Assembly (NCBI RefSeq): GCF_002571385.2
Contig: NW_019217836.1
Location: 388,882-452,881 of the forward strand
From: Stylophora pistillata
Taxonomy: Eukaryota
DNA: 64,000 nt
Direction: 5' to 3'
In this document: positions 43,301 through 48,317 of the stretch, in pieces
Layout: every line of letters begins with the position of its first letter
How positions within the stretch are numbered: the stretch's first letter is position 1
The notes under the pieces: model-generated
The model's database searches: none
Told to the model about the DNA's origin: nothing
Seen by the model: only the letters and a program-made list of their open reading frames with translations
Position numbers and translations under genes: made by a program

Positions 43301-46300
43301 TAGTGTTGAAATAATTACATTTGTTTTGTTCCATTATGCACAGTGATTGGTCATGTAAATTAACGCCCCACCATCATCCAATGTAGAACTAAATCTCGAA
43401 AGTAATCTGGTTTTGTATGGGCTTGAATTTACTGAGCTCTCTGATTGGTTTTGGAAACCGGCACCTCCTCTAATCCAGTATTGGATAAAACGAAACAAGT
43501 AACGACTTGGTTATCCGCGTTTTCTGCGCCGTAGGAGTTCTTGCTTGTTCCTTTTGATTCAGACTGACTCATTACTGTTATTTTAGTGGTACCGTTAATT
43601 TTCAAAGTGGCAGGGGAACAAAAAAAATGTTCACAAAGATGAATCTTTGCAAAACACTTTAGAGGTACAGCCTAGATATGACCTGATTGAGGAGACAAAG
43701 GCAATGATGATACCACTGGTGCATCTTTTACTGGTTTCTTCCGTTCCCTTAGAAAATTTAACAAAGAATTGCATAGAGGAAGTTCTTGATATTAAAAACA
43801 AAAACAGAAAATCATTTATGCTTCGAATTTCAGATGAAGCATATCCCCGACGAATCCTACTGATTTGCCGTAGATGGTCAGTTTGGCATTGCAGTGTTTG
43901 CACAGTCAATGCACATCTTTGCCGAGGCTTCGCAAAAAAGAAAGACGTAGATGTCGCTTGTTTGGTACTAGATGCGACTGGTCAAGAAAAGAGTGCGGCA
44001 GCAAAAGATGGTGTGATCCTTATTAAGGCGAGTGATCAAACAGGTATTCCACAGGGAGATGAACACCTGCTGTTCCTTCATAATGAGTTCCCTTTTAAAG
44101 CAGAGTTAGTGGTTGGGCACGGAATGTTGTCGGGTGCTGCAGCAGCTATCCAAGCAAAACGTTTAAATTGCAAACGTCTTCACGTTTTTCACAATTTGCC
44201 GGTAGAAGACGACGATTGCCATGTGCGTTTAACTTCTGAAGGGGGAAAAGAAACCGAGAGGGATATCGCAAGGAAAGCTGACTTCGTCGCGGCGATAGGA
44301 GCTCTTCTCGCGGAACAGTGGGGCATGATCCTAAATCGTGGTATATCGGTGATCATACCTGGATTGCCAGATGTGGCCCCTCGAAACAAAATACCTACTC
44401 CACAAAGTAGGTGTCTCATTTTGGGAACCCTTTTGGGGAACGATAATTTTTCGATGAATGGACTTGGCATGGTTATAGATGCTCTGAAGGACTGCAGACA
44501 AGGATCATATCCTATCCACGTAACTGTACTTGGCACTGAGCGAGGAAAAATTGAAGAGCTTAAAGACACACTGAAGACTCGCTGTTGCACGTCTAGTTTG
44601 GAAGTCGCAGTAAAACCATTTGAAGTGAGTCTAGAAACGATTGGTGTTGAAATACGTGGAGTTTCATTAGTACTTATTCCATTTCTGTCTGATGGATTTG
44701 GAGTACTGGCACTGGAAGCCATATCTGCTGGGGTTCCAGTTTTAATCACTTCATCTAGTGGCCTTGCAAAATGCATTCAGCAAGAGTTTGATGAACGCTT
44801 TTTAAAGTTTGTTTGCGCCACAGAAAGGACTACACTAGGAGATAGAACTGAGGATTGGTCAGACGCTATCGAAGAGATAGTTAATGATCGCGAAAAAGCA
44901 TTTAGTTTGGCTGCATCCCTCCGAGAACAGTGGAATTCCAAATTTACATGGGAATCCATATGCAGTAAACTTCTGTTAGATCTTGGAAAATTTGGGGATT
45001 TCCTTGTGCGTTCGCCGTCATCTACACAACCTATAGGTCTTCCATCTCAATGCACAGACTCGGCTCGAAGATTAATCGAGGTTGAAGTTGATTTACTGAA
45101 TAGAAGACGAAAGCATGTATTGTTTCTTTCTCCTGAGAATGCTTCCAAATCGCCATTTATTCAGTACTTTGCACAGGTGCCGTGGGCTGCTGTGTTCGAC
45201 TTTGATGTTAGAAGCGTTGAGAGTGGCTATCTCGCCAGTTGCGAGAACTTTTGTGAAAGAATGGGCATGAAGATTTGCCGAATATTGCCACCTTTGCCAG
45301 ACGAAGAACGTAAGAAGGTCTCAGTTATGCTACCAAATGGTATCCCATGGGTTCTCCTTGATGGTATGCCAGAAAGCAAACGGAATATTAAAGACAATTT
45401 GGAGTGGATGAGGGAATTTTTCTTGTCTCTAATGAAGACTTACCCTGGTCCTATCACCTTTGTAGTGTTGTGGTATTCCGGAAAAAGGATTTTGAGTAAG
45501 AATCTGTCCAAAATTCTTACTGTTGTTCAGGGCTCACCCCTTCATGGTCAAGTAAAGCTCGTGATAGTTTCCTCAGCATCAGGAGAAGACGAACTTCTGG
45601 AAGACATCGCAGAAGATTGGGGAGTCGAAGTCCACAAGTTTGATTTGGAAGAAGTTACCAATGCCCTTTGTCAATGTATCAGCGCGTGCCCCTTTATTCG
45701 AGAGGACCAAGATTTTTCTTTGCCAGTCGCAGATCAGAGTGAGTCTCATAGGTTAGCCTTCAAGATTTTGCCCCAGAAACGTCGCTGGATTAATGCGGAA
45801 ATGGAAGTTCTTTATCAGTCTTGTGGAAGTACTCCTGAATTTGATGATGATGCACTCCATTTCTATCGGGGTGGGCAGATCTCTTGGTATGCTCTCCAGA
45901 TGGGTTATGCTGTGGAACGTGAAAACTGGGAAGCATTGCATGGAAGAATTGATGAGCTCATCCTGAAGGCAGGAACGATGAAGCTGAAGTTGCCACATCA
46001 AAGAGGAGCTGGTGGAACTACCACAGCCCGAAAGATTCTTTTTGACTACCACGAGAGATATCCTTGTGTTTTGCTCCGGTCAGTCAGCCATTCGGAAATT
46101 GCTCCTGCCATCAAAGTGTTATCAGAGTTTTGCAAACTACCTGTTATAATTCTCGTTGACTGCAAGCATATTCAAACTGATGAATTTGATGTTGATAGTC
46201 TCTACAACAATCTATCCAATGATAGGATTCCCTGTGTCATTCTGGAGGTGATTCACTCCAGCCAGCACCGCGACCGGAACACTTCCGAATGGTTTCAAAA

Positions 46301-48317: not shown

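What the first reader, a model, noticed from the sequence alone, without database searches (positions are those of the whole stretch)
43834..48317. SAMD9-type antiviral STAND protein whose effector slot holds a GT4 glycosyltransferase instead of the AlbA_2 nuclease
Seen: the C-terminal ~1070 aa carry SAMD9 motifs in order: VPWAAVFDFD (~45177), FYRGGQISW (45861), HQRGAGGTT (45996) and terminal KVQLYLAFNFFGADAYNV. Directly upstream, in the same exon and frame, is a complete GT-B/GT4 domain. Established: vertebrate SAMD9/9L is SAM-AlbA_2-SIR2-like-STAND-TPR-OB, with AlbA_2 as the tRNA-cleaving effector; coral NLRs are known to carry glycosyltransferase domains. Inference: this is an effector-swapped SAMD9, in which pathogen sensing by TPR/OB and NTPase oligomerisation would switch on sugar transfer or nucleotide-sugar consumption rather than RNA cleavage. 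That parallels effector swapping in bacterial Avs/STAND defence proteins. I do not know of this combination being characterised.
Basis: partly seen in the sequence, partly recalled or inferred. Interest (0 to 1): 0.92.

Follow-up and report, generated by a model that had tools for sequence, protein, structure and literature searches.

The report
Coral SAMD9 carrying a pseudo-glycosyltransferase
This transcribed coral gene joins a relative of the human antiviral protein SAMD9 to a sugar-transferase fold that lacks the usual phosphate-binding catalytic residues, so it likely signals through the death-effector domain at its front end rather than by transferring sugar; the domain line-up itself was already listed in a 2017 paper's supplement.

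Summary
43834-48317 is the last of 19 exons of a spliced Stylophora pistillata gene: DED - TPRs - charged linker - GT4 - SIR2-like - STAND - TPR - OB, with no AlbA_2. The line-up is in print: Mekhedov 2017 (Additional file 1) lists an Acropora SAMD9 with this glycosyltransferase domain, and Kaur 2021 lists that accession as DED+TPR+GT4. New here: the GT4 looks catalytically dead. The GG loop, the Arg (MshA R231) and the Lys (K236) are each present in 0 of 26 SAMD9-fused copies from corals to Nematostella, against 29 of 29 other GT4s from this genome. Yet the GT-B fold (Z 31) is kept under purifying selection. The ATP-site residues H737, T/S744, D799, R685, R982 and H985 are kept. Best reading: a SAMD9-type switch that clusters its DED to recruit caspase or FADD partners, with a non-catalytic GT4 as ligand, decoy or regulatory module (inferred, untested). 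Corals also keep AlbA_2- and HEPN-type SAMD9 paralogues. A separate transfer from bacterial Avs9 was not supported.

The parts
19267..19524 (+). Exon 1: start codon and death effector domain (DED), with RKDL motif
   Evidence: Exact mapping of P0002 aa 1-86; Pfam DED E 6e-14; DED also in the Pocillopora, Acropora, Montipora and Nematostella orthologue models
28720..36035 (+). Exons 3-10: N-terminal TPR repeats (P0002 aa 106-360)
   Evidence: Exon mapping; Pfam TPR_1/TPR_2 E about 1e-14 to 1e-15; absent from the Nematostella model P0106
36859..42764 (+). Exons 11-18: Lys/Glu/Ser-rich linker (P0002 aa 361-663), poorly conserved, probably disordered
   Evidence: 18-24% identity to Acropora, Montipora and Porites orthologues; exon 18 donor joined to 43834 in RNA-type contigs
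43834..48317 (+). Exon 19, one 4.5-kb coding exon holding GT4 plus the whole SAMD9 core and the stop codon
   Evidence: one contig of run X1 spans 43831-48320 with 1191 further bases upstream
43857..44972 (+). GT4-conflict domain, GT-B fold, predicted pseudo-enzyme
   Evidence: PF20706 E 8e-69; model pLDDT 88.5, MshA Z 31.4; motif counts
43890..43895 (+). Cys-Ser in place of the GG loop of the N-lobe
   Evidence: GG in 0 of 26 SAMD9-fused copies, 29 of 29 own-genome paralogues, 8 of 10 other GT4-conflict proteins
44427..44459 (+). Thr (44427) and Asn (44457) at the pyrophosphate-binding Arg and Lys positions (MshA R231, K236)
   Evidence: Profile alignment to MshA 3c4q (residue numbers counted from that alignment); Arg 0 of 26 (Lys in 3), Lys 0 of 26, against 29 of 29 each in paralogues
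44691..44717 (+). EX7E motif read as D-X7-E (MshA E316, E324)
   Evidence: First Glu in 5 of 26, second in 15 of 26 SAMD9-fused copies; 28 and 29 of 29 in paralogues
45084..45683 (+). SIR2-like domain (VPWAAVFDFD); boundaries approximate
   Evidence: Avs9-like profile alignment begins at P0002 aa 1081; weak stretch to human SAMD9 SIR2 region
45711..46823 (+). Delta + NOD (STAND) module with HxxGxGGT/S P-loop; boundaries approximate
   Evidence: Equivalents of human R685, H737, G742, G743, T745, D799, R982 in 35 of 35 rows, T/S744 in 35 of 35, H985 in 34 of 35 (human numbering)
46911..47918 (+). C-terminal TPR region; boundaries approximate
   Evidence: Avs9-like profile alignment; human SAMD9 alignment reaches its start
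47991..48272 (+). OB-fold region ending in ...YLAFNFFGADAYNV; boundaries approximate
   Evidence: Aligns to the C-terminus of the Avs9-like profile; not folded here

Best explanation
This gene encodes a conserved SAMD9-family protein of corals and sea anemones whose glycosyltransferase domain lacks the usual donor-binding residues and is likely a pseudo-enzyme, and which would signal by clustering its N-terminal death effector domain. Shown: the spliced DED-TPR-linker-GT4-SIR2-STAND-TPR-OB gene model, the GT-B fold, the loss of GG/Arg/Lys in all fused copies aligned, purifying selection, and the kept ATP site. Inferred from human SAMD9: it rests as an ATP-bound closed monomer or dimer, opens on a pathogen or stress cue and oligomerises through SIR2/SIR2 and OB/SIR2 contacts. 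Inferred from DED biology: the clustered DEDs recruit a FADD- or caspase-8-type partner and trigger cell death or signalling. Most speculative: the dead GT4, whose acceptor-side N-lobe is better conserved than its donor-side C-lobe, binds a sugar-like ligand or a protein and so sets the trigger or threshold. My odds: GT inactive about 0.8; DED as output about 0.6; both about 0.5.
For: Catalytic erosion: GG 0/26, Arg 0/26, Lys 0/26 in fused copies against 29/29 in own-genome paralogues and 8, 8, 9 of 10 in other GT4-conflict proteins that were found with this domain as query. These positions align to MshA R231/K236; PglH R191A and K196A have no activity; the pair is conserved across GT4 enzymes. 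The second EX7E Glu drifts to D, N, Q, K or V in 11 of 26. Fold kept. Selection: dN/dS below 0.5 for both lobes in the 14 of 15 pairs where it could be computed, and C-lobe dN above core dN in 15 of 15 non-independent pairs. Lobe identity is 49/37% in fused copies against 53/53% in paralogues. DED present in Stylophora, Pocillopora, two Acropora, Montipora capricornis and Nematostella models and in Exaiptasia entries of Kaur 2021. One clade of 11 rows, support 100. Transcribed and spliced. Activation model from PMC13600222.
Against: No enzyme assay exists, and some active GT-B enzymes arrange their basic residues differently (WaaG aligns at the Lys without the canonical Arg spacing); Asp at the first EX7E position is compatible with activity in GT20 enzymes (recalled). 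The 29 paralogues were the top scorers to the Pfam model, so they lean towards the consensus, and none of them has been shown to be active either. His (MshA H133) is kept in 24 of 26. Three anemone rows have Lys at the Arg position and Glu first. DED is missing from the Actinia, Porites, M. foliosa and A. millepora models (possibly partial models) and is less conserved (45-53%) than the core (58-71%). I did not show a transcript reaching exon 1. With 108 DED matches in the genome the partner is unknown. Slow, apparently single-copy evolution is not typical of an arms-race gene.
Confidence: 0.5

Rival explanations
1. One reading: GT4 is an active effector that replaces AlbA_2 and transfers sugar or consumes nucleotide-sugar when the core oligomerises, using a non-canonical active site.
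For: It occupies the AlbA_2 slot 37 residues before SIR2; fold intact; His and often the second Glu kept; Kaur 2021 proposes GT4 as a conflict effector; the slot is exchangeable: AlbA_2, kinase-like TCAD9, metallophosphoesterase and PNP-type domains in bacterial-type relatives, HEPN in coral paralogues.
Against: GG, Arg and Lys absent in 26 of 26 fused copies; the replacements vary freely (N, D, K, T, I, S at the Arg; S, N, G, L at the Lys), which looks like decay rather than a new chemistry; donor lobe relaxed.
Confidence: 0.12
2. Integrated decoy: the dead GT4 mimics the coral's many intact GT4 immune proteins, so that a pathogen inhibitor or substrate aimed at them binds here and opens SAMD9. 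This is a specific version of the best explanation.
For: At least 60 GT4-conflict matches in this genome (60 scored of 191 candidates); over 500 reported in Acropora digitifera; fold kept, catalysis eroded.
Against: The domain is only 21-26% identical to the paralogues and forms its own old clade, so it does not track them as a decoy should; no sign of rapid evolution.
Confidence: 0.2
3. The GT4 is only a structural spacer or clamp, and the protein is a slowly evolving housekeeping or developmental cell-death scaffold with no role in pathogen sensing.
For: One strong match in the genome; shortest stem of the three coral SAMD9 clades (0.86 against 1.84 and 1.87); 64-89% NOD identity across coral genera; present in contigs of runs from several studies.
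Against: All characterised family members (SAMD9/9L, Avs5, Avs9) are defence proteins; the N-lobe of GT4 is about as constrained as the core, more than a spacer needs.
Confidence: 0.15

Closest known systems
Acropora digitifera XP_015751629.1 (Mekhedov, Makarova, Koonin 2017, PMC5445408 Additional file 1; Kaur et al. 2021, PMC8195603 Figure 6 source data)
   Same: [quoted passage not shown] Almost certainly the orthologue (same order and spacing; the accession itself was not aligned).
   Different: In the parts I read, neither paper discusses this fusion in the main text or examines its active site; Kaur's label omits the SAMD9 core. No function tested.
Human SAMD9/SAMD9L
   Same: SIR2-like - Delta - NOD - TPR - OB core; GGT P-loop with upstream His; R685, D799, R982, H985 equivalents.
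   Different: No SAM, no AlbA_2 tRNase; DED, TPRs and GT4 instead; D800 not acidic; likely Sensor-1 position His rather than Arg (alignment there differs; the Avs9-like profile has Arg opposite this His).
Bacterial Avs9 / SAMD9-like STAND proteins (AlbA_2-SIR2-STAND-TPR-OB)
   Same: Best non-cnidarian hits of the core, 23-33% identity in the listed rows, best E 1e-76; P0110 has Pfam AlbA_2; relatives of these hits lie in named bacterial genomes.
   Different: They carry AlbA_2, kinase-like or other N-terminal domains; of 30 mostly long hits scanned, GT4 was found only in the three members of the cnidarian subfamily. Trees keep animal and bacterial rows apart.
Coral GT4-conflict proteins (GT4-NACHT-LRR, GT4-AP-ATPase-TPR and others; PF20706)
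   Same: Same domain family and fold.
   Different: They keep GG, Arg, Lys and EX7E and are heavily expanded; the SAMD9-fused domain has lost the motifs and forms a separate clade.
GT4 enzymes MshA and PglH
   Same: GT-B fold, Z 31.4 and 27.8; His and second Glu kept in this gene.
   Different: R231/K236 equivalents are Thr/Asn, E316 is Asp.

Membership tests
SAMD9 family (Mekhedov core) | SIR2-like, STAND NTPase, TPR, OB in this order | tested here: met
   Profile hit to human SAMD9 E 3e-14 over NOD and TPR start, weak SIR2 stretch; end-to-end alignment to an Avs9-like core profile. OB not folded separately.
SAMD9 family (Mekhedov core) | Walker A GGT/S with upstream His in place of Lys | tested here: met
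   H, G, G, T/S, T in 35 of 35 rows
SAMD9 family (Mekhedov core) | Walker B DD, Sensor-1 Arg, WHD His of the human ATP pocket | tested here: inconclusive
   D799 35/35 and H985 34/35 kept; D800 never acidic; Sensor-1 position His 35/35, alignment uncertain
Vertebrate SAMD9/9L and Avs9 (tRNase type) | AlbA_2 nuclease before SIR2 | tested here: not met
   No Pfam AlbA_2 in P0002 at E up to 0.05 while controls C19 and P0110 score E 3e-14 and 3e-13; own AlbA_2 profile finds the crinoid control (E 1e-18) but not P0002, and misses C19; gap of 37 residues
Vertebrate SAMD9/9L | N-terminal SAM domain | tested here: not met
   Pfam finds DED and TPR, no SAM
GT4 / GT4-conflict (fold family) | Two Rossmann lobes, GT-B fold, PF20706 match | tested here: met
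Active GT4 glycosyltransferase | Pyrophosphate-binding Arg and Lys of the C-lobe | tested here: not met
   Thr and Asn here; 0 of 26 each in fused copies
Active GT4 glycosyltransferase | Gly-rich N-lobe loop (GG) | tested here: not met
   0 of 26 against 29 of 29; its role in donor binding is recalled, not read here
Active GT4 glycosyltransferase | EX7E motif | tested here: inconclusive
   D-X7-E here; first Glu 5/26, second 15/26
Active GT4 glycosyltransferase | Sugar transfer from NDP-sugar | not testable with these tools
   Needs an assay
DED-recruiting STAND platforms (apoptosome-like) | N-terminal death-fold domain on a STAND protein | tested here: met
   Pfam DED E 6e-14, RKDL kept in all full-length coral models with a DED
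DED-recruiting STAND platforms (apoptosome-like) | Binds a DED adaptor or caspase on oligomerisation | not tested
   Partner unknown among 108 DED matches

The most novel reading that the evidence does not exclude
An animal STAND receptor with an integrated decoy: a glycosyltransferase dead since before corals and anemones split, kept as bait or sugar-ligand sensor that trips a SAMD9 core and hands the signal to caspases through a DED, so that the 'effector slot' of SAMD9 has been turned into a sensor.
Probability: 0.2. Interest if true: 0.8.

Novelty: new variant of a known kind. Interest (0 to 1): 0.42.

Why it matters
Every SAMD9-type protein tested so far acts through an enzyme (tRNase, NADase). 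This subfamily would show the same switch wired to a death-fold output and carrying a pseudo-enzyme, which makes Mekhedov's 2017 apoptosome-like prediction testable in Nematostella, where the orthologue (XP_032231202) is a compact DED-GT4-core protein. It also warns against reading GT4 in coral immune proteins as an active effector from annotation alone, and corrects a database name ('TOM70'). The score is moderate because the domain list is in print and the mechanism is inferred.

Tried and rejected
Separate horizontal transfer from bacterial Avs9: suggested by similarity ranks but not supported; animal rows form one side of a branch with support 99 (LG+G4, 61 rows) and 93 (LG+C20, 49 of 61 rows after dropping 12 near-redundant ones), and the short stem explains the ranks. 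No vertebrate SAMD9 was in the trees, the root is not inferred, long branches are present and no AU test was run. Docking of GT4 on the SIR2-NOD part: complex prediction gave no answer (score 0.00, alignment not used); no evidence either way. Single-sequence fold failed (pLDDT 37); repeated with an alignment. PADLOC: no match for this protein. ESM Atlas gave SAMD9-like and nSTAND5/7 clusters, nothing new. A homologue search aimed at vertebrate SAMD9 listed only cnidarian-named or unnamed paralogues. Chimeric gene model rejected: one frame, one RNA-type contig across GT4 and core, and 45 of 47 homologues carry PF20706 (the other two are shorter predictions). Four of 24 listed runs held next to none of the words, and X13 left gaps over the GT part; neither shows absence. 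Literature: SAMD9 + glycosyltransferase (23 papers listed, none on this by title or abstract; it missed Mekhedov because the word is only in the supplement), and searches showed no functional study or pseudo-enzyme claim; subscription papers are not covered. Legrand 2025 main text and readable supplements had no coral or glycosyltransferase entry. The search of earlier findings returned nothing relevant.

Full report
What is there. The stretch 43834-48317 lies in one stop-free frame. A homologue search returned a 100% identical Stylophora pistillata protein of 2157 aa (P0002, PFX30254.1, misnamed TOM70; RefSeq XP_022782966.1, 2182 aa). Mapping it on the window gave 19 coding segments from 19267 to 48314; a few linker-exon edges are uncertain and an assembly gap (about 40400-41355) lies in an intron. 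Pfam on the full protein: DED 9-85, TPRs, GT4-conflict 672-1043, weak nSTAND, no AlbA_2, no SAM. Contigs of 3 of 4 laid runs show the exon 18 end joined at 43834 and one contig spans the whole exon plus 1191 upstream bases; two of the four runs are on record as poly(A) RNA, two are guessed RNA, and the 780 intronic bases upstream of the exon are uncovered except by one low-depth contig.

The SAMD9 core. A profile of 35 orthologue rows hits human SAMD9 at E 3e-14. Using the numbering of the cryo-EM paper PMC13600222 (read: abstract, Results parts 1-2 of 3, Discussion), the equivalents of R685, G686, H737, G742, G743, T745, D799 and R982 are invariant in 35 of 35 rows, T/S744 in 35 of 35, H985 in 34 of 35; D800 is never acidic and the probable Sensor-1 site is His in 35 of 35. 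So ATP binding is likely and hydrolysis doubtful. In human SAMD9 the SIR2-like domain lacks the NAD lid and serves as an oligomerisation surface; I assume the same here.

The GT4 domain. It folds as GT-B (pLDDT 88.5; MshA Z 31.4, rmsd 3.5 over 353). I aligned 26 SAMD9-fused copies (this one, 21 proteins with a complete N-lobe, 4 of 5 metagenome loci), 29 own-genome paralogues (30 loci returned of 60 scored matches; one with a stop was dropped) and 10 other GT4-conflict proteins. Counts for fused / paralogue / other: GG 0/26, 29/29, 8/10; Arg 0/26, 29/29, 8/10; Lys 0/26, 29/29, 9/10; first Glu 5/26, 28/29, 10/10; second Glu 15/26, 29/29, 10/10; His 24/26, 29/29, 9/10. A 17-row profile aligns these positions to MshA R231, K236, E316, E324 and H133. 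Passages of PMC5792488 report no activity for PglH R191A and K196A; passages of PMC8760489 state that the pair coordinates the pyrophosphate across GT4 enzymes. The fused domains form one group (support 99, quick tree with long-branch warnings) that includes Nematostella and Actinia, so the loss likely predates the coral-anemone split. Nei-Gojobori estimates on 6 DNA sequences (15 pairs, many near saturation, whole-exon dS as denominator) give, for the four pairs with dS under 0.8, dN/dS of 0.09-0.39 for the N-lobe, 0.19-0.47 for the C-lobe and 0.16-0.28 for the core. The fold is therefore maintained while the donor side is relaxed. Against this reading: no assay, no coordinates to exclude a compensating basic residue, paralogues selected as best Pfam scorers, His retained.

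Distribution and paralogues. 45 of 47 homologues of the core carry PF20706; named ones are Pocillopora, Porites, Acropora, Montipora, Actinia, Actinostola and Nematostella. The own-genome search gave one strong match and seven distant ones: an AlbA_2-bearing paralogue on C19 and clusters on C309 and C381 whose full-length relatives carry a weak HEPN_DZIP3 match (E 2e-7 to 9e-5, two of six over the cut-off). So the coral has not replaced its nuclease-type SAMD9; the GT4 form is a third lineage. Outside cnidarians the best 150 representatives are almost all bacterial-type SAMD9-like proteins, with relatives in named bacterial genomes, but trees place the animal rows together, without vertebrate rows and without a root.

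Mechanism. Shown steps are the gene, its splicing into exon 19, fold, motif loss and selection. Inferred steps: closed ATP-bound state; opening and SIR2/OB-mediated oligomerisation (from human SAMD9); DED clustering and recruitment of FADD or caspase-8-type partners (general DED biology, passage; partner unknown among 108 matches); a binding role for the dead GT4. DED is present in Stylophora, Pocillopora, two Acropora, Montipora capricornis and Nematostella models but absent from four other named models, which may be partial.

Prior art. PMC5445408 (read: text parts 1-2 of 4, term passages, Additional file 1 whole, files 2-3 by term search; figure not visible) lists Acropora digitifera XP_015751629.1 with glycosyltransferase, SIR2, Apaf-1-like and TPR domains and notes the glycosyltransferase in other cnidarians; its main text never uses the word. 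PMC8195603 (passages; Figure 6 source data part 15 of 61 and a term search) defines GT4 as a predicted conflict effector and lists that accession, Exaiptasia 'Samd9l' and the Nematostella protein as DED(+TPR)+GT4. PMC12680541 (passages, supplements by term) defines Avs9 and has no coral entry. bioRxiv 10.64898/2026.01.04.697583 and PMC12314368 were seen as passages. Nine library searches (listings only) showed no functional study of this subfamily and no statement that its GT is degenerate.

Verdict. Interest 0.42.

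Noticed in passing
G000:C309 (L010-L012) and G000:C381 (L013-L015): Tandem clusters of SAMD9-like genes whose full-length relatives carry a DZIP3-type HEPN match before SIR2: a second effector-slot variant in corals and anemones, possibly RNase-type; two C309 copies are not in one open frame.
   Followed up: partly
G000:C19, L009:4243-9036: Single-frame SAMD9-like paralogue with two AlbA_2 matches and an atypical P-loop lacking the His; no hit to human SAMD9 at E 0.01.
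   Followed up: partly
P0251 (Antedon mediterranea XP_071960008.1): Crinoid protein with Death domain, Avs9-like AlbA_2 (E 1e-18 to my profile, missed by Pfam) and SAMD9 core; scores nearly as high as the coral proteins against the Avs9-like core profile.
   Followed up: partly
window 62309-63361 (-): Apolipoprotein L-like ORF, 350 codons, Pfam E 1e-20; another possible immune gene 14 kb downstream.
   Followed up: no
window 61048-61560 (-): 170-codon ORF with no clear Pfam family; looks to me like an E2/UBC-type fold, untested.
   Followed up: no
window 5208-6500 (-): Single-exon rhodopsin-family GPCR, E 2e-54.
   Followed up: no
window 13461-14440, 53699-54919, 56580-57635 (-): Broken retroelement fragments (reverse transcriptase, integrase zinc-binding, zf-RVT matches).
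   Followed up: no
window about 42790-42940 and 52250-52393: A short repeated element of about 150 bases occurs in the last intron and again downstream (same translated words).
   Followed up: no
L046-L125: 80 bacterial loci with Avs9-like genes across many phyla, many in Dehalococcoidia; neighbourhoods not examined.
   Followed up: no
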